DNA of 64,000 nucleotides from contig CAYTIB010000114.1 of NCBI GenBank assembly GCA_964437725.1, positions 2,695 to 66,694 of the forward strand. Reading direction: 5' to 3'. This document shows positions 11,349 to 31,234 of this stretch, in pieces. The position numbers and the translations under genes are program-made. The notes beneath the pieces are model-generated. The model was not told where the DNA came from, ran no database searches, and worked only from the letters and a program-made list of their open reading frames with translations. Numbering within the stretch: position 1 is the stretch's first letter; every line of letters begins with the position of its first letter. The DNA is from an uncultured bacterium. Its GTDB lineage: Bacteria; UBA8248; JACPRG01; G963555815.

Positions 11349-12062
11349 TTAGGATTGCGATTTGATATTTTGAGGCGCAATTAGGACGACAAACTCACCT
11401 TTAGGTTTTTTCTTAGTGATCTCTTTGGCGACTTCTTCTGCCGTACCGTGAAATTTTTCTTCATAAATTTTTGTCATCTCGCGGATAACGACGATCTGTC
11501 GCTCTCCTACCGTTTCTTGAAGTTCCTGGAGAAGCTTCTTAATCCGGTGGGGAGATTCGTAGAGGACAACCGTGCGAGACTCCATTCTAAGGTTTTCAAG
11601 CTGGCGGAGTCGTCGACCCGACTTGACAGGCAGAAATCCCTCGAAGGCGAATCGGTCGGTCGGTAGGCCACCGCACGACAAAGCAGCGATGACAGCCGAT
11701 GGGCCCGGAATTGGAACGACTGTCACCCCAGCCTCCACAGCACGTTTCACCAAATAATACCCCGGGTCGGAAATGCCAGGGGTTCCAGAATCCGTTACCA
11801 GTGCCACAGTGATTCCTTCATGCAGCTGCTGAAGCAAAGAAGGGGTCCGCGCTTCTTTATTATGATCGTGATAGCTTTCGAGCTTTTTCCCCGTAATTCC
11901 GTGTCTAGAGAGTAACTTTCGAGTGTGTCTGGTGTCCTCGGCTGCAATGAGATCTGCGGCTTCAAGGGTTTTTAGGGCCCTCAGGGTAATGTCTTCCAAG
12001 TTTCCTATGGGGGTGGCAACGACAAATAGTGTGCCAGTACCACCTTCTCCTCGAGCAATCAT
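11349..12062 (-). CDS. rsmI: 16S rRNA (cytidine1402-2'-O)-methyltransferase RsmI
   Basis: 237 aa with the tetrapyrrole-methylase fold signature (LFVVATPIGNLEDIT.RAL… AEDTR.T..LL… SDSGTPGISDPG). Confidence 0.9.
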   Translation of the reverse strand: MIARGEGGTGTLFVVATPIGNLEDITLRALKTLEAADLIAAEDTRHTRKLLSRHGITGKKLESYHDHNKEARTPSLLQQLHEGITVALVTDSGTPGISDPGYYLVKRAVEAGVTVVPIPGPSAVIAALSCGGLPTDRFAFEGFLPVKSGRRLRQLENLRMESRTVVLYESPHRIKKLLQELQETVGERQIVVIREMTKIYEEKFHGTAEEVAKEITKKKPKGEFVVLIAPQNIKSQS

Positions 12063-12242
12063 TTTGTCATTCTAAGCGACTAAAGGGTCTCTCGACGAGG
12101 GCTTCCAAGAATTTTAATCAATTCGCCCTTGTCTCCCATCTTAAATAGGATACTATGATGACGGAATATGATTTGTGCTTACAAGTCTCGTTCACAAAGC
12201 CTGATTAGCAAATGGTAACCTCTTTTGGGGAAGATGCGAGCT

Positions 12243-13307
12243 ATGAAGTTTTATGAACATCTGATTCGGCCTGCGTTGTTCACACTTTCTGCGGAGCGAG
12301 CACATGAAGTTGCAAAGCGAGTCCTTGGATTTGAAACTCCTTGGCGACAGCTTGCAGGTCGGTTTGAATTTTGTGATCGTCGACTGGAAACACGGGTGGG
12401 AGGTCTTCACCAGTCTAGTCCCATCGGTCTAACAGCAGGGTTAGATAAGGATGCTGAAGCCTTACCAGGTCTTTTCCACCTAGGCTTTGGTAGCCTCACT
12501 ATCGGAACTATTATGCCATCGGTCAGGAAGGGAAACCCCAAGCCTCGCATGGTGCGTCTTCCTGATCGGATGGCCGTTATCGATCATATGGGTCTGCCGT
12601 CAAAGGGCATAGAATATGGAGTGTCAAGGCTGAAATTGTTTCGTGATTGCCACCCAATAGGTCAGGGTCCTCCTGTTATCGTCAGTTTGGGTGGGCTTAC
12701 CATTGACGAACTTTTGACATCCCACCGATCTGTTGAGCCGCTATCGGATGCCATCGAATTTGATTTGACTTGTCCAAACGTTACTGAAAGAGGAGATTTC
12801 GAAACCGTTGACGGTATTGAACAATTTGTAAGGAGACTTGTTGATGTGCGGAGTAAGCCGTGCTTTTTTCGATTACCCCTTCGTCTTTCAGACGAGAATT
12901 GGCGCAAGTCTCTTGCCATCAGTGAGATTGTCATAAAGTATGGTATGGATGGAGTAACGCCAGCCGGTGGTGTTGCCATTGATGATGACCGTTTAGCTTT
13001 GAAAAAAGGTGCATTAGCGGGCAAGCCTCTCTTGGAGAATTCAATTCAGATTCTCCGGGATTTGAGGAGCGCATTTGGCGAGGAAATCGTGATACGTATT
13101 GCAGGGGGAGCGACGAGTGGTGAAGATGTTTTCAGAATGCTGGAAGCGGGTGCAGATGCCGTCAATGTTCTAACGGCTTTTATTTTTAGAGGTCCCGGTG
13201 CGGTGGCAGCCATGAACAGGGAGTTGATTGAAAAAATGGATTTAGAGGGAGTGGGATCCATCGGGGAAATCCGATCCCGGGCAACTTCTAAAGTACCCAG
13301 TTCTTGA
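12243..13307 (+). CDS. Dihydroorotate-dehydrogenase-like flavoenzyme, divergent paralog A
   Basis: DHOD-fold motifs are ERAHE N-terminal helix, GLTAGLDKD, GNPKPR, DLTCPNV and GGATSGEDV. The ORF opens at TTG 12225. ATG 12243 has GGGGAAG upstream, and ATG 12234 is also possible. Confidence 0.75.
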   Translation: MKFYEHLIRPALFTLSAERAHEVAKRVLGFETPWRQLAGRFEFCDRRLETRVGGLHQSSPIGLTAGLDKDAEALPGLFHLGFGSLTIGTIMPSVRKGNPKPRMVRLPDRMAVIDHMGLPSKGIEYGVSRLKLFRDCHPIGQGPPVIVSLGGLTIDELLTSHRSVEPLSDAIEFDLTCPNVTERGDFETVDGIEQFVRRLVDVRSKPCFFRLPLRLSDENWRKSLAISEIVIKYGMDGVTPAGGVAIDDDRLALKKGALAGKPLLENSIQILRDLRSAFGEEIVIRIAGGATSGEDVFRMLEAGADAVNVLTAFIFRGPGAVAAMNRELIEKMDLEGVGSIGEIRSRATSKVPSS

Positions 13308-13355
13308 CGCTAGTTTTTCTTGGTTTCCATAGTTTTAAGGCGAGAGAACTTTAGT

Positions 13356-14399
13356 ATGGGTTTTTACACTCGGACAGTTCGTCCTGTTCTTTTCGCACTA
13401 CCCGCTGAAAGTGCACATAACTTAGCCAAACGAGCTTTATCTTTCGAATTTCCTTGGCGTATTTTTGGGGAACAGCTGAAGGTTTTTAGCCCACGGTTGG
13501 AATGTGAGGTTGCAGGACTTTTCCAGCTTAGCCCGTTTGGTCTTACGGCAGGTTTCGATAAAGACGCCTTGGCCCTTCCAGGTCTTTCGCACCTCGGATT
13601 CGGAAGTGTTACTGTTGGGGCCATTTTGCCGAAGTATAGGGCGGGAAATCCGAAACCTCGTTTAGCTAGATGCCCAGCGGAAGCGGCGTTGGTCAACTGT
13701 ATGGGGCTCCCTTCTAAAGGTCTCGACTACGCTGTTAATAATCTTCAACGTTATCATGCAGTTCGTCCTGTTGATGGCCCGCCGATTATTGCGAATGTCG
13801 GAGGATTTTCCATCGATGAGATTCTGGCTACATTCAGAGCTACGGAACCATATGTGGACGCTGTTGAGTTGGATCTAACCTGTCCAAACGTGATGATGGA
13901 AGGAGAACTGTCAAAGCTTGAAGGTATCCGGTCCGCCATGGAGCAAGTAGTGGTGGAGAGGACCAAGCCGGTATTTACGAAGCTTCCATTACGAACGTCT
14001 GAAAAAGATTGGGGGAAAGCGATCGAAATGTCCATCGCTGCAGCCGAAGCAGGGTTGGATGGGATCACGGCTGCGGGGAATCTTCGTGTCCAGGACCAGC
14101 GGCTTTCAAAATCCGAAGCATCTTTGACTGGTCGACCGTGCTTCGAAAATACTTTGAAGGTCGTCCGCGAGTTGCGGGGGGCCATCGGTAGGCGTTTGGC
14201 AGTTCGAGTGTCCGGTGGGGTATCGTCCGGAGAGGATGTCTATCGTCTGCTGCAGGCTGGAGCAGATGCTGCAAATGCCTACACGTCATTTGTTTACCAT
14301 GGACCCTCAATTGCAGCCCGAATCAACCAGGAGTTACTTTTAAAGATGGATGAAGAAGGCGTGGGGTCTGTAAATGAGTTGAAAGAGTGGCGGTTTTGA
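13356..14399 (+). CDS. Dihydroorotate-dehydrogenase-like flavoenzyme, divergent paralog B
   Basis: Alignable end to end with paralog A (AESAHN, GLTAGFDKD, GNPKPR, DLTCPNV, GGVSSGEDV). ATG 13356 is preceded by AAGGCGAGAG. The ORF opens at 13320. Confidence 0.75.
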   Translation: MGFYTRTVRPVLFALPAESAHNLAKRALSFEFPWRIFGEQLKVFSPRLECEVAGLFQLSPFGLTAGFDKDALALPGLSHLGFGSVTVGAILPKYRAGNPKPRLARCPAEAALVNCMGLPSKGLDYAVNNLQRYHAVRPVDGPPIIANVGGFSIDEILATFRATEPYVDAVELDLTCPNVMMEGELSKLEGIRSAMEQVVVERTKPVFTKLPLRTSEKDWGKAIEMSIAAAEAGLDGITAAGNLRVQDQRLSKSEASLTGRPCFENTLKVVRELRGAIGRRLAVRVSGGVSSGEDVYRLLQAGADAANAYTSFVYHGPSIAARINQELLLKMDEEGVGSVNELKEWRF

Positions 14400-14525
14400 T
14401 CCAGCAAAGAGCCCTCATTCGGGTGCTAACCTGGTCTCTACCAGATCCCACATTTGTTGGATCTGGGCAGTGCCAACTTATCTGTGCGATAGAGATCCTT
14501 CATCCATTCTCGCGGGCTTTGTCCG

Positions 14526-15260
14526 ATGAATAGAAATATCCTTCGAATTTCACTTCCAATCTTACGCAAGTTGTTTTCGCTAGTTTATTCCAGCTCTCAC
14601 CCGAAAGGATTAAAGAAAGAGGATGCGGAATTTTTGAAAAAGCTTGATCTCGAGGGACGTACTGTCTATGACGTTGGTGCCTACAAGGGTTACTATAGTC
14701 TGTTTTTTGCCCGGGCGGTTGGGTCTCAGGGTCGGGTTATATCATTTGAACCACACCCCTTGAATTTTCAAAAATTGACGAAACGGATCAAGAGAAACCT
14801 GCTTGAAAATGTTGAAGTGCGCCAGATTGCCATAGGAAAAGAAAGTGGGCGGAGGGTATTAGCGTTTCGGATGTCTGGAACAGGAACGGCGAGTCTTCAA
14901 GAAGGTTTAAAGGGAAATATTTCCCGAGAAGGTGGGAGCCAAACTATTAATGTTGACGTGGACTCGTTAGATCATTTGATATCCGTCCAAAAATTGCCAC
15001 AACCGGATTTCATGAAGGTCGATGTCGAGGGTCTCGAGATGGAAGTTCTTTCGGGGATGAAGGGCACGTTAAAGCAGTACAAGCCAGAGCTACTCATTGA
15101 AATTCACGGGGCAGAACGAGAGAGCAAATTGAAAAATGCAGGGAAAATTGTCGATTTTCTAATAGATCAGAGATATTCCCTTCGACATGTTGAATCCAAT
15201 TTGGAAATTACCGCCAATAATTTTGAAATTGCTAGGGAAGGACATTTGTATTGTTTCTAG
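14526..15260 (+). CDS. FkbM-family SAM-dependent methyltransferase
   Basis: 244 aa with the SAM motif VYDVGAYKGYYS and FkbM-like downstream blocks (FEP.P.N…, DF.K.DVEG.E..VL.G). Confidence 0.7.
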   Translation: MNRNILRISLPILRKLFSLVYSSSHPKGLKKEDAEFLKKLDLEGRTVYDVGAYKGYYSLFFARAVGSQGRVISFEPHPLNFQKLTKRIKRNLLENVEVRQIAIGKESGRRVLAFRMSGTGTASLQEGLKGNISREGGSQTINVDVDSLDHLISVQKLPQPDFMKVDVEGLEMEVLSGMKGTLKQYKPELLIEIHGAERESKLKNAGKIVDFLIDQRYSLRHVESNLEITANNFEIAREGHLYCF

Positions 15261-15273
15261 CCTTTTTCTTAGG

Positions 15274-15303
15274 AAGATGGAGAGGGTTGTCCGCATCTTT
15301 TTT
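15274..15303 (+). terminator. Possible intrinsic terminator after the FkbM-like gene
   Basis: Stem AAGATG (15274-15279) pairs with CATCTT (15294-15299) and is followed by a T-run through 15303. The loop is long (14 nt), so this is a weak call. Confidence 0.35.
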
Positions 15304-15383
15304 GATAAATCCGGGCAACTCGAAATGCTCTGAAAGGGTTAGTCCAAATTTTAAATCATAGTTTGTTGCGTGAGATACCTTGA

Positions 15384-15875
15384 TCAATTTGGTGCGACAG
15401 ATGATGCGGCAATGTTCCAATCCTTCCACTCTTTGAATACTTTTTCTGCCTGCTCTTCGAGGACACCCCGAATGACCTGAATGGTTAGACCGCTCAATTC
15501 CACCACCCGCTCTATGGTGTAATCCTTTAAATCGTATCGTCCGCTAGAAAGCCGGCGAAGAACTTCTGGGCCGGCGCCAATGACAACCGTACTTACACCA
15601 GAATAAATTGCTGCTCCGGCACACATAGGGCAAGGATCACAGTTAGCGTACATTGTACAACCACGCATGTCGCCGGTGCCCAAAAATTGAGCGGCCTGGC
15701 GAATTGCATTCATCTCGGCGTGTGCTGTTGGGTCTTTTGTGGCTACTCCTGTACTTTTTCCCTTACCGATGACTTGATCATTTTTTACGATAATGCCGCC
15801 GTATGGTAAGAATCCATTTTGGACGCCGTCTTCAGCTTCCTGAATGGCCATGGCCATATATTTTGCATGGTCCAT
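15384..15875 (-). CDS. CDA-fold (cytidine/deoxycytidylate deaminase family) nucleobase deaminase, guanine-deaminase-like, copy 1 (most divergent)
   Basis: Zn motifs HAE and PCPMC are intact (…DPTAHAEMNAIR… TMYANCDPCPMCAGA…). ATG 15875 (MDHAKYMAMAI) is preceded by CGGAGAAA. The longer ORF to 15959 would overlap copy 2. Confidence 0.8.
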   Translation of the reverse strand: MDHAKYMAMAIQEAEDGVQNGFLPYGGIIVKNDQVIGKGKSTGVATKDPTAHAEMNAIRQAAQFLGTGDMRGCTMYANCDPCPMCAGAAIYSGVSTVVIGAGPEVLRRLSSGRYDLKDYTIERVVELSGLTIQVIRGVLEEQAEKVFKEWKDWNIAASSVAPN

Positions 15876-15903
15876 CAAGATTTTTCTCCGTATTTTGTAG
15901 TTT

Positions 15904-16407
15904 CTATTGACCGGACCGTAATACATTTGGAGAGACGATCGATAAATCACCAAATTCACGAAAAGCGACCTTAACCTCTTCTTCCAGTATTCCTGTCCGG
16001 ACCTCCATTTCGAAACCGGTTAACTTTAATAAATGGTCGATGTTGTACTTATTCAGATCGTAATACCCTCTGGACTCATTTAGTAACGTTTCCATACTGG
16101 CCCCGATGACGATGGCTTTAACCCCTGAGGCGACAGTTGCCCACGCGCACATAGGACAGGGGTGGCATGAAGTATAAAGTGTGCAATTGGTGAGTTTCGA
16201 GGTTTTAAGGTTTTTTGCAGCATTTCGAACTGCCTCGATCTCCGCGTGTGCAGTCGGATCCCCAGTCGAATTGACGACATTACGTCCTTGTCCCACTACA
16301 TTTCCGTCACGCACGACGATGGACCCAAATGGCCGATCACCAGATTGAACCGCAGCACGCATTTCCCCAATGGCCATAGCCATAAATTTTTCGTGGTCCG
16401 CTTCCAT
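15904..16407 (-). CDS. CDA-fold nucleobase deaminase, guanine-deaminase-like, copy 2
   Basis: MEADHEKFMAMAI… DPTAHAEIEAVR… TLYTSCHPCPMC. The sequence closely parallels the B. subtilis GuaD pattern (GPFGAVIV…DPTAHAE…LYTSCEPCPMC). Confidence 0.85.
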   Translation of the reverse strand: MEADHEKFMAMAIGEMRAAVQSGDRPFGSIVVRDGNVVGQGRNVVNSTGDPTAHAEIEAVRNAAKNLKTSKLTNCTLYTSCHPCPMCAWATVASGVKAIVIGASMETLLNESRGYYDLNKYNIDHLLKLTGFEMEVRTGILEEEVKVAFREFGDLSIVSPNVLRSGQ

Positions 16408-16456
16408 CCAAAATCTCCCGATTCGGACTCATTGTTTTTTCAAACGGAAATTCTGG

Positions 16457-16924
16457 TTAAGAAATCGACCAGTCGTATTCGGTGAGAGCCTGTTCAGCAT
16501 CGTCCTGAAGCACTCCCCGGGTGATTTCAAGGGATGCGTGCATCTGTTCGGCGAGGTTTTCTGCCGTATATGTTCTACCCGGCACATTTTGAACCTCCGC
16601 TAGTTTTGCGGATCGGGCCCCTATGAACAATCGCTCAATCTGAGCCATCATTATTGCTCCGGCACACATAGGACAGGGGTCGCAGGACGTATAAAGGGTA
16701 CAACCTGCCAAACTTGCAGTCTTCATGTTGACCGAAGCGTCACGAACTGCATTAACCTCCGCGTGTGTGGTTGGATCTCCAGAGGAGTTAACCACATTGA
16801 AGGCTCGTCCAACGATATTCCCATCGCGCACTACGACTGATCCAAAGGGTTGCTCACCATTTCGGAGCCCTTTACGAGCTTCTGCAATAGCCACAGCCAT
16901 AAACTTCTCATGTTCGGTGCTCAT
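16457..16924 (-). CDS. CDA-fold nucleobase deaminase, guanine-deaminase-like, copy 3
   Basis: MSTEHEKFMAVAI… DPTTHAEVNAVR… TLYTSCDPCPMC. Start ATG 16924 is chosen by alignment with copies 2 and 4 and the upstream GGGAAGGGAAGG. The ORF is open to 16939. Confidence 0.85.
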   Translation of the reverse strand: MSTEHEKFMAVAIAEARKGLRNGEQPFGSVVVRDGNIVGRAFNVVNSSGDPTTHAEVNAVRDASVNMKTASLAGCTLYTSCDPCPMCAGAIMMAQIERLFIGARSAKLAEVQNVPGRTYTAENLAEQMHASLEITRGVLQDDAEQALTEYDWSIS

Positions 16925-16954
16925 TCCTTCCCTTCCCATGTTTGAGGTAAAGCA

Positions 16955-17443
16955 TCAGGTTTGCCGAATTTTCGAATCTAGTATCCATTGGTATTTTGCT
17001 AGTACGAGTTCTGCTTCCTCCTGCAGGACACCCCAGATAACTTGGAGGTCCATTTTGTACATTTCAGCAAGCCGGTCGGGATTGTATGTTCGCTCGCCTG
17101 TCTGGCCTCTCAGTTTAACTAGTGTGCTGCCCCGGCCGGCAATAACTAATGTTCCTATCCTGGCGTTAAGGATAGCTCCGCAACACATCGGACAAGGTTC
17201 ACAAGAAGTATATAGAGTGCTGCCTTCGAGGTTCGGAGTTTTCAATCGTACGGAAGTCTCCCTAACTACTTTGGTTTCCGCGTGTGCAGTGGGGTCGAAC
17301 GAAGAATTGACGGTGTTGTAGGCACTTCCGATCACCTCGTCGTCCCGAACGATAGCACTTCCGAATGGGGCCTCCCCACCACTCAGACCCTTGCGGGATT
17401 CCTCGATGGCCATGGCCATAAACTTCTCATGGTTTTCACTCAT
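16955..17443 (-). CDS. CDA-fold nucleobase deaminase, guanine-deaminase-like, copy 4
   Basis: MSENHEKFMAMAI… DPTAHAETKVVR… TLYTSCEPCPMC. ATG 17443-17441 overlaps the TGA stop (17442-17440) of the upstream LLM gene as an ATGA coupling. Confidence 0.85.
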   Translation of the reverse strand: MSENHEKFMAMAIEESRKGLSGGEAPFGSAIVRDDEVIGSAYNTVNSSFDPTAHAETKVVRETSVRLKTPNLEGSTLYTSCEPCPMCCGAILNARIGTLVIAGRGSTLVKLRGQTGERTYNPDRLAEMYKMDLQVIWGVLQEEAELVLAKYQWILDSKIRQT

Positions 17444-18453
17444 GTTGGAGCTCCTTTTTCGCGATTCCATTGTTCTGCCACAAGTCTAAGAGCATGTTTT
17501 CGGCTCTCCGGGGACCCGCGAAGAGCCAGGATGGGAATTTCAAGTCCCGTCTTGAGGTATTCTGATATACGATCGGTTGCCATCTTCGGCGTACCTGTTA
17601 CCGTAAAGGCATGAACGATTTTCTCTGGCAAAAGACGGCGCATGGTTATCCAGTCTTCCTTGACAAGTGCATTATTAACCGCATCGATATCAAGATTCAC
17701 TCCAGTTAGTTCAAGATTTGTCCGTAATCCAGGATTTCGGAGCAAATAGCCGAGCCCCTTTTGCGCTTCAAGGAGAGCGTCTTCGTAATTTTCTGAAATA
17801 GAGGTCATTATTAGACTGGCATATGTGAAGTTCCCCCCATCATTCCCGCTTCTCTTTCGGCCAATCTCGGTTTGTTCCATGGCCCATTCGATGTACTGGG
17901 GTGATACGGATGCGGAGAAAACGACCCCGTCGGATACTTCTCCGGCAAGTTGGCACATCTTCTCGCCGATGGCCGCAAGATAAATAGGAATTGAGGGTCC
18001 TGGAATTTCGAAGTCAATGTGGGCTCCCTTGAGGCTCAAGGTCTCACCGGTGAACTCTACTCGGTTCCTTTTGGCATCCCAAATTTGTCGTATAGAGCAA
18101 ATCATATCCCGCATATGGGCTAGTGGTTTCTTTAAAGGGATCCCCATCTCACGTATCACCTGTGCATTGGCTGTTCCAGCACAGAGAGCTGTGCGGCCTG
18201 GAGCGTACTCCGCTAATGTTGCTACCCCCATCGCCCAAAAAAGGGGATGAGCAACGTAGGGACTAAGTGCGGTAGGTATGACGAGTGTGTTTTTTGTTTC
18301 TGCTAGAAAGGCGATCGATGAAGAAACGGCATCTCGATATCCTAGGTGTTGATCAGCCCAGATGGAATGAAAACCCGCCTCGTCGGCAATTCGGCACATA
18401 TCAACCATGTCGGAGAGCGAAATGCGTCCATCCAAATCGATACCAAGCTTCAT
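17440..18453 (-). CDS. LLM-class (luciferase-like) flavin/F420-dependent oxidoreductase, Mer-like
   Basis: 337 aa from ATG 18453, which has GGAGG 6 nt upstream. It has the typical LLM N-terminus (MKLGIDLDG…AGFHSIWADQHL…) and a TIM-barrel pattern resembling methylene-H4MPT reductase-type F420 enzymes. Confidence 0.75.
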   Translation of the reverse strand: MKLGIDLDGRISLSDMVDMCRIADEAGFHSIWADQHLGYRDAVSSSIAFLAETKNTLVIPTALSPYVAHPLFWAMGVATLAEYAPGRTALCAGTANAQVIREMGIPLKKPLAHMRDMICSIRQIWDAKRNRVEFTGETLSLKGAHIDFEIPGPSIPIYLAAIGEKMCQLAGEVSDGVVFSASVSPQYIEWAMEQTEIGRKRSGNDGGNFTYASLIMTSISENYEDALLEAQKGLGYLLRNPGLRTNLELTGVNLDIDAVNNALVKEDWITMRRLLPEKIVHAFTVTGTPKMATDRISEYLKTGLEIPILALRGSPESRKHALRLVAEQWNREKGAPT

Positions 18454-18600
18454 TGAAACCTCCAACCAAAAACAAAACTTGTCACCACTTAGTCCGGATA
18501 CCCTCAGACGGTATATGTGCAGCAAAATCCGATGAAAGCGCACCACAGATGACTCGAAAAGAGGAAATCCCTCTCTTCTGAATTCGGGTGGGCATTCCTT

Positions 18601-27903: not shown

Positions 27904-28767
27904 TTATTCCCTGTCGTTTTCATTGGAGTTCTTAGTTAAATTGGGATACTTGCGTTTTTCTGCAGGCCGATGCTTCCGTAGCGTCTCGATGAATTCAACC
28001 CCGTTTCCAATGATGGCCTGCCACAATTTTTCGCCCTTTTCCACATTGGCGACAGTTGGATCGCCGATGTGTGCTGGGGGAGTATAAAAGCTCTGATCGT
28101 CTGCAGTTATCGTTATTGGAATTTTGTCGCCGGATGCAAAATTGTCGTGGGAAAAAAACCGACTTTCAAAGTAAAGGTTTCCCCGGTGTTCGAAGGCCTT
28201 ATCCATTTGGACCATCTCGGGACGTTTGAATAGCATATGGGACGTTTCAAACTCACCGCCATGCTGCCCCGCGCCCGGATTCTCACAGACCTCTTTATGG
28301 GTTGAGGAAGCAATGATTAAAGGATCGTACAAAGCAAAAAAGGTTTCTGGATTTTCTTGTTTAATGGTTTTGCTTGCAATCCCAATTGCAGCGACGTTGG
28401 CTAGCCGGTGGCCATTGAAGGTGATAATGTTTTTAAATCCATGTTTTATGAGGCTGCGATAAATATCCTTAAGTAGATCGACTACTGTTTCTGGCCTAAG
28501 CGAAATCCCAGGTTTGTGCATGTGGTGCTGGGCGTCTCCAAACCAGCTTGGTGGTGTGCACAAGACATTCGCGGCCTTTGCTATCCCTTCCGAATAATCA
28601 ATAGCTTCGAACCCATCGACCCCAATGGGAAGATGTGGACCGTGTGGTTCGGTACTTCCAATAGGTACGATTACGATGTCTTCCTGTTCCAGGTATTCGG
28701 CAATCTCTTCCCAAGTAAGATCCTGCATCCAAATTGATTTGAGTTTCTTTTTCCGCGCGGTAGCCAT
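27904..28767 (-). CDS. Creatininase-family amidohydrolase
   Basis: Hallmark motif VPIGSTEPHGPHLP (family pattern GS.EQHGPHLP) plus a later GGEFETS block. ATG 28767 is preceded by AAAGGAG. The track start (TTG 28791) is less likely. Confidence 0.8.
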   Translation of the reverse strand: MATARKKKLKSIWMQDLTWEEIAEYLEQEDIVIVPIGSTEPHGPHLPIGVDGFEAIDYSEGIAKAANVLCTPPSWFGDAQHHMHKPGISLRPETVVDLLKDIYRSLIKHGFKNIITFNGHRLANVAAIGIASKTIKQENPETFFALYDPLIIASSTHKEVCENPGAGQHGGEFETSHMLFKRPEMVQMDKAFEHRGNLYFESRFFSHDNFASGDKIPITITADDQSFYTPPAHIGDPTVANVEKGEKLWQAIIGNGVEFIETLRKHRPAEKRKYPNLTKNSNENDRE

Positions 28768-29103
28768 GCGTTCTTTTCTCCTTTGCGACAAACGGTGTTT
28801 TGTCGTTGCGTTAGTAGAATATAGGCTAACTTTGTTCCTCAGAGATTATGCTGTAGTCTCGGTTGCTCGGATAGGTTCATTGCGAAATCGAGTCGTATGG
28901 GAATGAACCGGAGCGACAGCTTTTCTGCTTTTGTCGAATTTTCTCCGGGTGGGTATGGCAACTCACGGTTTGTACTTGAAGGTGTGTCGACATCGGTACC
29001 GCCACCTTCGCGGTTCCTGGGGGTTCAACGAGAATGTTCTCCCAGGTAGGTGATTTTCCCACCCTCTCACGGAGCAGAGATACCTCTTGCTGGTGAGAAG
29101 TGC

Positions 29104-29469
29104 TCAGTTCGTGAATTCGTTTTTAGCGTATTCCGAGCTTTCCATTTTTTCACCGAACTCCACTACCAGGTCTCGTATAAGGCGGTAGCGAGGTACGGGT
29201 TCCACGACCATCCCTTCCTCAAGCGGAATCTGACAGGAAAGGACAGATTTCCCATTAACTCGCATTTGACAAGTACGGCAATCTTCAATCCGGCACGACC
29301 ACCGGACGGCGAGCGAATGGTCAATCTCTTCTTGAATGTAGCGCAATGCATCGAGGACTTTAATGCCCTCCCACTTCGGGACGACAAACTCCTCTAAACG
29401 ACCTTCCGTCTCTCCTGCATCTGGATCCCGACGATATACCTTAAACCGCAATTTGGGGTCGCTCATCAA
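29104..29469 (-). CDS. SdhB/FrdB N-terminal-domain-only [2Fe-2S] protein
   Basis: 121 aa. The sequence …FKVYRRDPD…VLDALRYIQEE.DHSLA.RWSCRIEDCRTCQMRVNGKSVLSC…IRDLVVE matches the 2Fe-2S domain of SdhB (C-x4-C-x2-C-x11-C). It stops where the 4Fe-4S/3Fe-4S domain would begin, and it overlaps the 3' end of the flavoprotein gene. Confidence 0.7.
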   Translation of the reverse strand: MMSDPKLRFKVYRRDPDAGETEGRLEEFVVPKWEGIKVLDALRYIQEEIDHSLAVRWSCRIEDCRTCQMRVNGKSVLSCQIPLEEGMVVEPVPRYRLIRDLVVEFGEKMESSEYAKNEFTN

Positions 29470-31234
29470 TGACCTCCTTTGGATCGACCGTTGTGACCTT
29501 AAGCGGTTCCGTCCGGAGTTCTACGTCTCCCCCGTTGCCCCGCCGCAGATAGGTGTTTTTTAGCCAATTACTATTATCCATGGCTAGATAGTCATCTCGG
29601 TGATGATTCCCACGACTTTCCTTCCGCTCCAACGCAGCATGGGCAACCAGCATACAGGTGTCGAGCTGGCGGGGAAGGGTTATGGCCGTTGCCCATTCCC
29701 AATTGAAGGGTAACGCTTTGGACTTCATTTTAGCTTGTGGCAGTAACTCATTTTTCGCCTCAGCAAACCAATCTATAGCGGACTTCAGATCGGTCTCGTT
29801 TCGGATTACCCCTACCTTTTCCCACATGGTCTCTTGCATCTTCTGGCGGATTTTAATGGGACTCTCACCCTTCCCGTTCCCATCCGTCCAGCCAAAAACC
29901 CTCTCATGTTCCAGATCAATCTTGGCATCGGTAACCTTCGGTGCAGATGTATTGGCAGCGTAAGCTGCCGCTTCCCGTCCTGCCACGCGGCCAAAGGCAG
30001 CCACATGGGTGAGTGCGTTACCACCCAAACGGTTTGCACCATGAACACCGCCCTGGGTTTCGCCCGCCGCGTATAGTCCTTCGACATTTGTCATCATGTC
30101 CAAACCTGTTCGAACACCTCCGCCGGTGAAGTGAGATTTAGCACCCACCTCCATCGGCTCCTCGGAAAGATCAAATCCAACGCGCTCACAGCGAACGCGA
30201 TAGCTCTTTGGAACCGATTTTCCACCTTGGAACTTATCGAATTCATAAATGAGGATATCTTTTGGTACAGAGGTCAGATCCATATAACAGCCACCGTGAG
30301 GGGAGCCTCTGCCAGCCCGAACCTCACTGTAAATACCAAATGAGCGAACGTCCCGGGTTGTGTTCCATGCCCGTACGCCATCATATTTTGCGAGAAAGTT
30401 CTCGCCCTCTGAGTTTATGAATCGCCCGTGCTCTCGTATTTGGGGACGCCAACCTGGAAAATTGGTTATGGTGACATTGATGTGTGTGATCCTTGGATCC
30501 ACCTGAGAGGGGAGAAATTGAATAAATTCCATGTCGACCATGTCCGCGCCTACCTCATAGGCCATTCCATGGACATCTCCCCCGCACTCAACGGCGGTAG
30601 TAGTAAACCGCATAGGCCAGAGTGTGGCATATCCCCCTGCCGCCAGGATGACTGCTTTGGCTTTGAAAATTAGGAACTCACCGGTTTTCCAGTCTATGCC
30701 TGTTACGCCTCCGACCTTCCCATCTTCGACAAGGATGCTGGTAACCAGGATACTCTCCATCCATGGCACGTCTATCCGGTCGATCTCTCTTCGGAGTGCC
30801 CACATCATTCGCGGGCCCGTCATAAATCCATAGTGAACCGATCTTTTGCGAGAGTGGCCTCCAGGAGGCCAGACCAGGTCGAATTTTCCGTCTTTGTCTT
30901 TCCGAAACGTTTTGCCGCCGCCCCACTCATCCAATTCATGTAATGTTTCGGGAGATTCCTTGGCGTAGAGCTCAACAAGCGGCTGATCCGGCATGCAATA
31001 CCCACCAATAACAGTATCGCGAAAGTGCAGCTCCGGTGTATCATCGTCCCCGACTGCCCCTGTGCAAGTGTGGCCGGCTGTTATGGTTGCTCCACTGCGA
31101 CCAAAATTTCCTCGGTCCAGAATCAGAACCTTTGCCCCTCCCTTTTGAGCATGGATAGCTGCTTCAGCACCGGCGCCACCGGACCCTACAACAAGGACGT
31201 CCACATCGATAGTGCGCTGAGACTTTGAGTTCAA
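29441..31234 (-). CDS. Succinate dehydrogenase/fumarate reductase-family FAD flavoprotein (divergent)
   Basis: 597 aa with VVGSGGAGAEAA (FAD), SHFTGGG, GANRLGGNAL and ESRGNHHRDDY, all matching SdhA/FrdA blocks. RSGAT replaces RSHT (the covalent-FAD His) and QFLPS replaces QFHPT. Confidence 0.75.
   Translation of the reverse strand: MNSKSQRTIDVDVLVVGSGGAGAEAAIHAQKGGAKVLILDRGNFGRSGATITAGHTCTGAVGDDDTPELHFRDTVIGGYCMPDQPLVELYAKESPETLHELDEWGGGKTFRKDKDGKFDLVWPPGGHSRKRSVHYGFMTGPRMMWALRREIDRIDVPWMESILVTSILVEDGKVGGVTGIDWKTGEFLIFKAKAVILAAGGYATLWPMRFTTTAVECGGDVHGMAYEVGADMVDMEFIQFLPSQVDPRITHINVTITNFPGWRPQIREHGRFINSEGENFLAKYDGVRAWNTTRDVRSFGIYSEVRAGRGSPHGGCYMDLTSVPKDILIYEFDKFQGGKSVPKSYRVRCERVGFDLSEEPMEVGAKSHFTGGGVRTGLDMMTNVEGLYAAGETQGGVHGANRLGGNALTHVAAFGRVAGREAAAYAANTSAPKVTDAKIDLEHERVFGWTDGNGKGESPIKIRQKMQETMWEKVGVIRNETDLKSAIDWFAEAKNELLPQAKMKSKALPFNWEWATAITLPRQLDTCMLVAHAALERKESRGNHHRDDYLAMDNSNWLKNTYLRRGNGGDVELRTEPLKVTTVDPKEVIDERPQIAV

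What the first reader, a model, noticed from the sequence alone, without database searches (positions are those of the whole stretch)
12225..14399. Tandem divergent DHOD-like paralogs mixing class-2 and class-1 hallmarks
**Seen in the sequence**
- Two adjacent, same-strand genes of about 350 aa (12243-13307 and 13356-14399) are mutually alignable.
- Both have a class-2-style N-terminal extension and blocks (…RP.LF.L.AE.AH…, GLTAG(L/F)DKD, GNPKPR) like E. coli PyrD.
- Their catalytic-loop motif is DLTCPNV, that is Cys where class-2 enzymes have Ser (NISSPNT) and Asp where both classes have the first Asn.
- They also carry a class-1-like GG..SGEDV block.
- Paralog A additionally has DHMG where the family has N.MG, and FFRLP where the family has a Lys (VKL/IAP). 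Paralog B keeps NCMG and FTKLP.
- The ATN-TT / N-S-x-G-N region reads VTPAGG in A and ITAAGN in B.

**Established knowledge**
- Class-2 DHODs use Ser as the catalytic base and quinone as the acceptor.
- Class-1 DHODs use Cys.
- The conserved Asn residues bind the dihydroorotate ring and carboxylate.

**Inference**
- These are unlikely to be a redundant pair of canonical PyrD enzymes.
- They may be a heteromeric or neofunctionalised flavoenzyme acting on another cyclic amide or dihydropyrimidine-like substrate, which fits the N-heterocycle theme of the window.
Basis: partly seen in the sequence, partly recalled or inferred. Interest (0 to 1): 0.6.

Follow-up and report, generated by a model that had tools for sequence, protein, structure and literature searches.

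The report
Tandem remodelled DHOD-like flavoenzyme pair
Two adjacent genes that annotation would call quinone-type dihydroorotate dehydrogenase belong to a large, apparently unstudied branch of that enzyme family with a cysteine base and a rebuilt substrate pocket, so they probably oxidise some other ring or acid compound rather than make pyrimidines.

Summary
Genes A (12243-13307) and B (13356-14399) are 48% identical. Both are full-length class-2-type DHOD folds (pLDDT 95, TM about 0.85 to human DHODH). Both read DLTCPNV in the catalytic loop.

In E. coli PyrD numbering:
- A carries N111D, N139S, N172D, S175C, K217R, N246G and T247G.
- B carries N172D, S175C, N246G and T247N.
- Both keep K66, N177 and the quinone-site residues H19 and R102.
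- Both score below every curated PyrD cut-off.

The "class-1-like GG..SGEDV" hallmark is wrong, because rat class-2 DHODH has the same block.

A, B and a third copy C (another contig) form one clade. That clade sits inside a group of about 100 protein clusters with a Cys base and varied pockets, separate from canonical class 2. I found no paper on it. In unrelated lineages its members lie in transporter-linked catabolic clusters (Asp/Glu-racemase-like, isochorismatase, Mo-hydroxylase, UbiD or ThDP decarboxylases). The A-B tandem is kept under purifying selection in six lineages.

Four related genomes also carry an ordinary class-1B pyrD-pyrK. This assembly has lost it through a 1.6-kb deletion and keeps only a catabolic-context class-1B paralog.

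Best reading (about 0.6): two non-redundant, quinone-linked dehydrogenases for DHO-like carboxylated substrates. A heteromer was not tested. The scan had already met this Cys-type branch on other DNA.

The parts
12243..13307 (+). Paralog A, 354 aa. It is a class-2-type DHOD-fold flavoenzyme with a Cys base and the most remodelled pocket: N111D, N139S, N172D, S175C, K217R, N246G, T247G, Y318L (E. coli numbering).
   Evidence: AF2 pLDDT is 94.9. Foldseek gives TM 0.82-0.86 to human DHODH. The same signature appears in seven orthologues. dN/dS is 0.05-0.2. The ATG at 12243 is preferred over the TTG at 12225 because homologues start at MKFY/MGFY.
13356..14399 (+). Paralog B, 347 aa. Same fold, with a pocket closer to DHOD: it keeps N111, N139, K217 and N177, and carries N172D, S175C, N246G and T247N.
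   Evidence: AF2 pLDDT is 95.4. Foldseek gives TM 0.84-0.88 to human, H. pylori and M. tuberculosis class-2 DHODH. dN/dS is 0.05-0.2.
12063..12242 (.). Intergenic region between divergent rsmI (11349-12062, minus strand) and gene A. It is the presumed promoter region of the A-B unit.
   Evidence: The consensus promoter scan was not informative. The rsmI / A-B arrangement is conserved in L012, L013, L015 and L016.
13308..13355 (+). 48-bp A-B spacer with a purine-rich stretch (AAGGCGAGAG) ahead of the B start codon. No terminator-like site lies here, which is consistent with co-transcription.
   Evidence: Co-transcription is inferred, not shown.
14526..15260 (+). FkbM-family methyltransferase, 127 bp downstream on the same strand. 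It is a possible third gene of the unit.
   Evidence: Pfam Methyltransf_21 86 bits and TIGR01444 116 bits. It is kept directly after B in genera g1 and g2 (L012, L015, L016). It is absent after B in L013 and L041.
15384..18546 (-). Convergent neighbours: four CDA-fold deaminases and a Mer-like LLM oxidoreductase. This is a recurrent neighbour of the A-B pair and not shown to be one pathway with it.
   Evidence: The same arrangement is seen in L005 and L012 and, without FkbM, in the more distant L041. It is not adjacent in genera g2 and g4.

Best explanation
A and B are two old, individually conserved paralogs of a Cys-type, pocket-remodelled branch of class-2 (membrane- and quinone-linked, FMN) dihydroorotate dehydrogenase.

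Proposed mechanism (inferred):
- Each binds FMN in the TIM barrel.
- The conserved Lys66 and backbone amides hold a substrate carboxylate.
- Cys175 removes the proton on the adjacent carbon while a hydride goes to flavin N5. This makes (or, run backwards, reduces) a C=C bond conjugated to the carboxylate.
- The reduced flavin is re-oxidised by a quinone through the retained N-terminal helical tunnel (His19, Arg102).

The residues that read the pyrimidine ring of dihydroorotate are replaced, and differently in A and B. The substrates are therefore most likely two different DHO-like carboxylated cyclic amides or dicarboxylates from the organism's very large heterocycle and aromatic-acid catabolic repertoire, not dihydroorotate. 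The enzymes are not redundant with each other.

Shown: fold, motifs, residue replacements, clade membership, purifying selection, conserved tandem arrangement, and coexistence with an ordinary pyrD-pyrK in relatives.
Inferred: FMN use, quinone use, reaction type, and non-DHO substrate.
For: Fold and motifs:
- Both are full-length class-2 folds with the N-terminal helices.
- K66, N177, H19, R102 and the glycine-rich FMN-phosphate motifs are kept in all members.

Departure from PyrD:
- Both are below every PyrD equivalog cut-off (best 190 and 201 against 267).
- N172D and N246G occur in both, plus N111D, N139S and K217R in A.
- 51 of 98 class-2-conserved positions are changed.

Phylogeny:
- A+B+C+P0015-17 form one clade (SH-aLRT 100). 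It lies within a 100-row Cys-type group separate from canonical class 2. A is sister to B.

Selection and conservation:
- Both genes are under purifying selection.
- The tandem is kept in six lineages.
- A's D111+R217 pair recurs independently in a 19-row clade of stand-alone enzymes (AU p = 0.003).

Pyrimidine synthesis is covered elsewhere:
- Relatives G003, G004, G005 and G008 carry A-B together with a class-1B pyrD-pyrK beside hemA. That pair has all Asn residues intact, and its PyrK passes NF000796. It is the only DHO_dh in the two 2.1-Mb genomes that lack A-B.

Contexts of clade members in other lineages are catabolic and transporter-linked:
- Amdase / Asp-Glu-racemase adjacent in 3.
- Isochorismatase in 2.
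- Mo-hydroxylase in 3.
- UbiD or split ThDP decarboxylase in 2.
- Transporters in 6 of 10.
- Copy C and a g2 paralog sit beside UbiD, an NMT1 binding protein and a TRZ/ATZ amidohydrolase.
Against: - No substrate is identified and no enzyme of the whole branch has been assayed.
- A-B itself has no transporter or committed catabolic gene in its own conserved unit, only an FkbM methyltransferase.
- Neighbourhood to LLM and Mo-hydroxylase genes is weak evidence in this genome. There is a 37% chance of such a gene within 5 kb.
- In this very assembly the lineage's housekeeping pyrD-pyrK is deleted, while pyrE and pyrF are present. One of the four remaining DHO_dh proteins must therefore supply DHOD activity unless pyrimidines are salvaged.
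- All four share Asp at position 172. One of them still passes a curated PyrD cut-off, so N172D alone does not exclude DHO.
- B has an Asn one residue after the lost N246, which might compensate.
- Support for the 100-row group is only SH-aLRT 85 on a quick tree.
Confidence: 0.6

Rival explanations
1. At least one copy (most likely B) is still a working quinone-dependent dihydroorotate dehydrogenase. It would be a Cys-type isozyme with an unusual pocket that backs up or replaces the class-1B enzyme.
For: - B keeps K66, N111, N139, N177, K217 and a catalytic base, and has an Asn at position 247.
- Bona fide-scoring class-2 proteins with a Cys base exist.
- Asp at position 172 is also found in the class-1B-like paralog that passes PRK07259.
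- This assembly has lost the housekeeping pyrD-pyrK but keeps pyrE and pyrF.
Against: - Scores are 66-180 bits below the cut-offs of all class-2 equivalogs.
- N246 is Gly in every member of the clade, and the class-2 MGFNN and PNTPGL lid and proton-relay motifs are gone.
- There are three copies per genome.
- The pair is absent from the two small genomes of the family and from the 44 genomes of the phylum outside the window's own family.
- It coexists with an ordinary pyrD-pyrK in four genomes.
- The class-1B-like paralog on contig C66 is a better candidate for residual DHOD activity.
Confidence: 0.17
2. A and B form an obligate heteromer. B would be the catalytic subunit and A a degenerate, regulatory or structural partner, or the two would share electron transfer.
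For: - A-type and B-type genes were always found adjacent, in that order, in all six lineages examined, and never seen alone.
- A carries more replacements of catalytic-site residues than B.
Against: - A keeps Cys175, N177, K66 and the FMN motifs and evolves as slowly as B.
- Its D111+R217 signature defines a separate clade of single-copy enzymes in catabolic operons, so it looks like a specificity change and not decay.
- No heteromeric class-2 DHOD is known to me.
- No tool here could model a complex.
Confidence: 0.13
3. A-B-FkbM is a small biosynthetic unit that dehydrogenates and then methylates a ring compound (a cofactor, signal or natural product). It would not be a catabolic pair.
For: An FkbM-family methyltransferase follows B on the same strand, at 80-130 bp, in genera g1 and g2.
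Against: - FkbM is missing after B in L013 and L041, where the pair is otherwise intact.
- No other biosynthetic genes are conserved nearby.
- Relatives of the clade sit in catabolic contexts.
Confidence: 0.07

Closest known systems
Class 2 quinone-dependent dihydroorotate dehydrogenase (E. coli PyrD, PDB 1F76; human DHODH, PDB 1D3G/1D3H; TIGR01036, NF003652)
   Same: - Same length and fold, including the N-terminal helical quinone-tunnel domain (TM 0.82-0.88).
- H19, R102, K66, N177, the GNPxPR block and the FMN-phosphate glycine motifs are kept.
- These are the nearest sequences in the PDB (E about 1e-36).
   Different: - Cys instead of the Ser175 base.
- N172D and N246G in both, plus N111D, N139S and K217R in A.
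- The lid and proton-relay motifs are replaced.
- 51 of 98 conserved positions are changed.
- Scores fall below all curated cut-offs.
- They form a separate clade.
Class 1A/1B DHOD (Lactococcus lactis DHODA, PDB 1DOR; DHODB PyrD-PyrK, PDB 1EP1)
   Same: Cysteine catalytic base in an xLxCPN loop. Class 1A also has Ser at the position equivalent to N139, as A does.
   Different: - Class 1 lacks the N-terminal extension and is cytosolic.
- It uses fumarate, or NAD+ through PyrK.
- The tree puts A and B with class 2 (SH-aLRT 99), and class-1 models score only 74-93 bits.
Uncharacterised DHOD/DPD-superfamily dehydrogenases X1 and X2 of Barba et al. 2013 (PMC4016543)
   Same: DHOD-family paralogs of unknown substrate that lie in heterocycle-catabolic neighbourhoods.
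   Different: X1 and X2 branch from class 1B / PreA, not from class 2. That paper shows DHODases type 2 as a single subtree and names no new family within it.
Cys-type DHOD-like branch noted earlier in this scan on other DNA (e1-4819065, e1-4031730)
   Same: The same kind of class-2-like Cys-type paralog in catabolic clusters, with a split ThDP enzyme or with an NMT1-isochorismatase-ABC operon. I saw both architectures independently.
   Different: Those are single genes of other subclades in soil bacteria. Here there is a conserved tandem of two diverged copies (plus a third) in a marine Nitrospinota-labelled lineage.

Membership tests
Class 2 DHOD (PyrD, quinone-dependent) | DHO_dh TIM-barrel fold with FMN-binding motifs | tested here: met
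   PF01180 scores 149 and 157 bits. AF2 pLDDT is 95 and Foldseek TM is 0.82-0.88 to class-2 structures.
Class 2 DHOD (PyrD, quinone-dependent) | N-terminal two-helix domain with the quinone-site His and Arg (E. coli H19 and R102) | tested here: met
   Helices at residues 2-41 in both models. H19 and R102 are invariant in the alignment.
Class 2 DHOD (PyrD, quinone-dependent) | Serine catalytic base (E. coli S175) | tested here: not met
   Cys in A, B and C. Note that a few proteins that score as true class 2 also carry Cys.
Class 2 DHOD (PyrD, quinone-dependent) | Four orotate-binding Asn residues (N111, N172, N177, N246) plus T247 | tested here: not met
   A keeps only N177. B keeps N111 and N177. 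T247 becomes G in A and N in B.
Class 2 DHOD (PyrD, quinone-dependent) | Score above the curated equivalog cut-off (TIGR01036, NF0036xx) | tested here: not met
   Best scores are 190 (A) and 201 (B) against 267. TIGR01036 gives 173 and 151 against 200.
Class 2 DHOD (PyrD, quinone-dependent) | Dihydroorotate:quinone oxidoreductase activity, or complementation of a pyrD mutant | not testable with these tools
   Needs enzyme assays or complementation in an E. coli K-12 pyrD deletion.
Class 1 DHOD (1A / 1B) | Cysteine base, no N-terminal extension, and (for 1B) an adjacent PyrK subunit | tested here: not met
   The Cys is present, but so is the extension, and no PyrK lies nearby. Class-1 models score 74-93 bits against cut-offs of 269-301. 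The tree groups A and B with class 2.
Dihydropyrimidine dehydrogenase PreA | Score above the NF006183 cut-off, with a Fe-S domain or a PreT partner | tested here: not met
   About 18.6 bits for each against a cut-off of 335. No ferredoxin domain or partner is present.
Undescribed Cys-type, remodelled-pocket class-2-like clade | Class-2 architecture with an E-x-x-L-x-C-P-N loop, and non-Asn residues at positions 172 and 246 | tested here: met
   Site table of 120 homologues. A, B and C fall in a 23-row clade with SH-aLRT 100.
Undescribed Cys-type, remodelled-pocket class-2-like clade | Monophyly of the whole group apart from canonical class 2 | tested here: inconclusive
   SH-aLRT is 85 for the 100-row group on a quick IQ-TREE run. 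The sample was drawn from hits to B only.

The most novel reading that the evidence does not exclude
The Cys-type branch would be a new enzyme class. Its members would be respiratory-chain-linked dehydrogenases or reductases that do for many heterocyclic or dicarboxylic acids what DHOD does for dihydroorotate. They would feed decarboxylases (UbiD, ThDP) and ring-opening amidases. In this lineage, A and B would work as an obligate pair (a heterodimer, or two successive or stereo-complementary steps) tied to the neighbouring deaminase array.
Probability: 0.2. Interest if true: 0.75.

Novelty: new variant of a known kind. Interest (0 to 1): 0.55.

Why it matters
- Automatic pipelines name these proteins 'dihydroorotate dehydrogenase 2', which would wrongly credit genomes with a quinone-dependent pyrimidine step.
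- If the branch really couples oxidation of other ring carboxylates to the quinone pool, it is an unassigned reaction type in the breakdown of nitrogen heterocycles and carboxyl-rich organic matter. The organisms concerned carry dozens of Mo-hydroxylases and UbiD decarboxylases.
- The natural series of pocket variants on one scaffold gives a ready-made system for studying how DHOD specificity is encoded. It includes a coupled Asn-to-Asp and Lys-to-Arg change that arose twice.

Tried and rejected
- Promoter and terminator consensus scans around the pair gave nothing above shuffles.
- Rfam found only a tRNA in the window.
- Six literature searches found no paper on class-2-derived DHOD paralogs with another function. 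Barba 2013 describes only class-1-derived families.
- I first took the class-1B gene on contig C66 as 'the canonical pyrD', and then assumed the lineage's hemA-linked pyrD was lost at a contig break. Both were wrong. C66 sits in a ten-gene catabolic operon. The hemA-linked pyrD-pyrK is cleanly deleted inside a 16-kb contig.
- I first counted UbiD, LLM and Mo-hydroxylase neighbours as strong context. I then found these families are so expanded here that adjacency within this lineage is weak.
- The MqnA family (futalosine route to menaquinone) gave no hit. I did not pursue quinone type further.
No transcript or read-level check of co-transcription or of the pyrD-pyrK deletion was therefore possible.
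Full report
**1. Observation**

The window has two same-strand ORFs, A (12243-13307, 354 aa) and B (13356-14399, 347 aa). They align end to end at 48% identity, E = 9e-130. Both match Pfam DHO_dh (149 and 157 bits). Their nearest solved relatives are rat and human mitochondrial DHODH (E about 1e-36).

The E. coli sequence needed two corrections and the L. lactis sequence was exact. I then used them to number an alignment of 130 sequences.
- Both genes read DLTCPNV, that is N172D and S175C.
- A reads DHMG (N111D), FFRLP (K217R) and VTPAGG (N246G, T247G).
- B keeps NCMG and FTKLP and reads ITAAGN (N246G, T247N).
- A also has N139S and Y318L.
- All copies keep K66, N177 and the class-2 quinone-site residues H19 and R102.

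One item is wrong. GG..SGEDV is not a class-1 mark, because rat class-2 DHODH reads GVGGVSSGQD at the same place.

**2. Fold**

AlphaFold2 models built on an 80-sequence alignment are confident: B has pLDDT 95.4 and A has 94.9, both with pTM 0.93. Foldseek returns only class-2 DHODHs at the top (human, rat, H. pylori, M. tuberculosis). TM is 0.82-0.88 over about 360 columns, so the N-terminal helices are included.

**3. Not ordinary PyrD**

- All ten class-2 equivalog models of NCBIfam score A and B below cut-off. The best is NF003652 at 190 and 201 against 267. TIGR01036 gives 173 and 151 against 200.
- Of 98 positions that are at least 90% conserved in 22 canonical class-2 sequences, 51 differ in A and/or B. 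These include the MGFNN and PNTPGL loops around the active site.
- Two caveats apply. Metagenomic proteins with every Asn intact but SCPN instead of SSPN score 481 bits on NF003652, so Cys alone does not disqualify. Asp at position 172 also occurs in this genome's class-1B-like paralog, which passes PRK07259 at 335 against 269.

**4. Where they belong**

A search with B found three tiers:
- a close clade at 50-77% identity;
- a large set at 35-44% identity whose loops read E[IV]xLxCPN;
- canonical N[IV]SSPNT class-2 proteins at 32-34% identity.

In an IQ-TREE (LG+C20, quick search) rooted on class 1, canonical class 2 (24 rows) separates from a 100-row group with remodelled pockets (SH-aLRT 85). 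That group has at least eight subclades, each with its own signature. A, B, a third copy C on contig C84, and a P0015-17 type form one clade (SH-aLRT 100). A is sister to B, and C is nested within B.

A's paired change N111D + K217R also defines a separate 19-row clade. An AU test rejects joining the two (p = 0.003, with the group named after seeing the tree). So the Asp/Arg pair arose twice, which suggests a coupled specificity change and not decay.

Public records call these proteins 'dihydroorotate dehydrogenase 2' or 'hypothetical protein', from MAGs labelled Nitrospinota and Desulfatiglandales.

**5. Conservation of the pair**

The A-B tandem, divergent from rsmI, is present in five of the seven genomes of the window's family (three genera). 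It is also present on two metagenome contigs, one of them (L041) carrying the most basal B-type. It is absent from the two 2.1-Mb genomes of the family and from the 44 other genomes of the phylum at E <= 1e-60. Pairwise dN/dS is 0.05-0.2 for both genes wherever dS is not saturated. An FkbM-family methyltransferase follows B in two genera but not in L013 or L041.

**6. Is there another DHOD?**

The family's ordinary enzyme is a class-1B PyrD (ELNLSCPN, all Asn residues present). Its PyrK passes NF000796 (235 against 224). The pair lies beside hemA. It is the only DHO_dh in the two small genomes and coexists with A-B in four others.

In this assembly, however, contig C68 (16.3 kb) lacks about 1.6 kb relative to the genus-mate. 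All of that pyrD and most of pyrK are gone, leaving a frameshifted 3' remnant at C68:11743-11962. pyrE and pyrF are present.

The remaining class-1 enzyme is on contig C66. It has a PyrK-like partner and lies inside a ten-gene co-directional operon with CoA-transferase III, an amidohydrolase, ECH, an HMGL-like protein, LLM, Amidohydro_2, a ThDP enzyme and a BhcC-like aldolase. The answer is less clean than a simple 'canonical pyrD present'. It keeps alive the rival that one of the Asp172 proteins still turns over dihydroorotate.

**7. Context and function**

Ten contexts of clade members from other lineages are mostly catabolic and transporter-linked:
- An Amdase / Asp-Glu-racemase-like gene lies directly beside the DHOD-like gene in three.
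- Isochorismatase-family hydrolases occur in two.
- Mo-hydroxylase subunits occur in three.
- UbiD+UbiX occur in one and a split ThDP enzyme in another.
- TRAP, ABC, MFS or TctC transport genes occur in six.
- Three contexts were uninformative.

Copy C is divergent from a TRZ/ATZ-type aminohydrolase and close to an NMT1-type binding protein, UbiD and a Mer-like LLM. The same holds in the genus-mate, where C carries a TAG. A g2 paralog lies directly after UbiD, with NMT1, PhzF, a Mo-hydroxylase and a ThDP enzyme nearby.

Inside this lineage such neighbours carry little weight. The 2.97-Mb assembly holds 56 Mo-hydroxylase large subunits, 32 UbiD, 31 LLM and 19 NMT1 genes, which gives a 37% chance that one lies within 5 kb of any point. 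More telling is that the array of CDA-fold deaminases plus LLM lies convergent to A-B in genus g1 and again in the distant L041. In g2 and g4 it is elsewhere.

**8. Reading**

The retained carboxylate-binding Lys, the Cys base, N177, the FMN motifs and the quinone tunnel argue for DHOD-type chemistry coupled to the quinone pool. That chemistry is abstraction of the proton next to a carbonyl and transfer of a hydride from the carboxylate-bearing carbon to FMN. The replaced ring-reading residues argue for substrates other than dihydroorotate, and for different substrates for A and B. I put this at about 0.6. The rivals are:
- a residual or alternative DHOD, most likely B (0.17);
- an obligate A-B heteromer (0.13, untested);
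- a biosynthetic A-B-FkbM unit (0.07).

**9. Novelty**

I found no publication on class-2-derived DHOD paralogs with another role. Barba et al. 2013 describe only class-1-derived X1 and X2. Earlier notes of this scan had already met the same Cys-type branch on other DNA (e1-4819065 and e1-4031730). I saw their architectures independently. The finding is therefore a new variant of a known enzyme kind. It is of moderate interest, and the tandem, doubly diverged arrangement is its particular feature.

Noticed in passing
G000 contig C68:11700-11962 (outside the window): The lineage's housekeeping class-1B pyrD and most of pyrK, next to hemA, are cleanly deleted relative to the genus-mate genome (about 1.6 kb). 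A frameshifted 3' remnant of pyrK is left. pyrE and pyrF are still present.
   Followed up: partly
G000 contig C66:11072-25639 (L001 covers 13972-17799): A second class-1B PyrD-like gene (loop ELDLSCPN, passes the PRK07259 cut-off) with a PyrK-like partner lies inside a ten-gene co-directional operon. The other genes are two CoA-transferase III genes, an amidohydrolase, ECH, an HMGL-like gene, LLM, Amidohydro_2, a ThDP enzyme and a BhcC-like aldolase. It looks catabolic, of the orotate-reductase type.
   Followed up: partly
G000 whole genome: Extreme gene-family expansions in a 2.97-Mb assembly: 56 Mo-hydroxylase large-subunit matches, 32 UbiD, 31 luciferase-like (LLM) and 19 NMT1/THI5-type binding proteins.
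   Followed up: partly
G000 contig C84:9101-10162 (L020): A third DHOD-like copy C (61% identical to B, DLTCPNV) lies divergent from a TRZ/ATZ-type aminohydrolase and near NMT1, UbiD and a Mer-like LLM. Its orthologue in the complete genus-mate genome carries an in-frame TAG.
   Followed up: partly
Proteins P0097, P0103, P0111 (metagenomic): These class-2 DHODs have every orotate-binding Asn intact but a Cys (VSCPNV) in place of the catalytic Ser. They score 481 bits on NF003652. Ser-to-Cys exchange therefore happens within apparently genuine class-2 enzymes.
   Followed up: partly
Alignment positions E. coli 111 and 217; clades of A-type and P0035/P0037-type: Asn111-to-Asp and Lys217-to-Arg always occur together, in two clades that an AU test keeps apart (p = 0.003). 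This suggests a compensating pair in the active site.
   Followed up: partly
L040 (P0082 context) and L009 (P0037 context): D111/R217-type DHOD-like genes sit between an isochorismatase-family hydrolase and an Asp/Glu-racemase (maleate-isomerase-like) gene. Three-subunit Mo-hydroxylase and NMT1 genes lie next to them. The layout recalls the last steps of nicotinate or picolinate degradation.
   Followed up: no
window 27904-28791 and 29441-31234: A creatininase-family amidohydrolase and an SdhA/NadB-like flavoprotein lie further along the window. A creatininase-family gene also appears in the P0027 DHOD-like operon.
   Followed up: no
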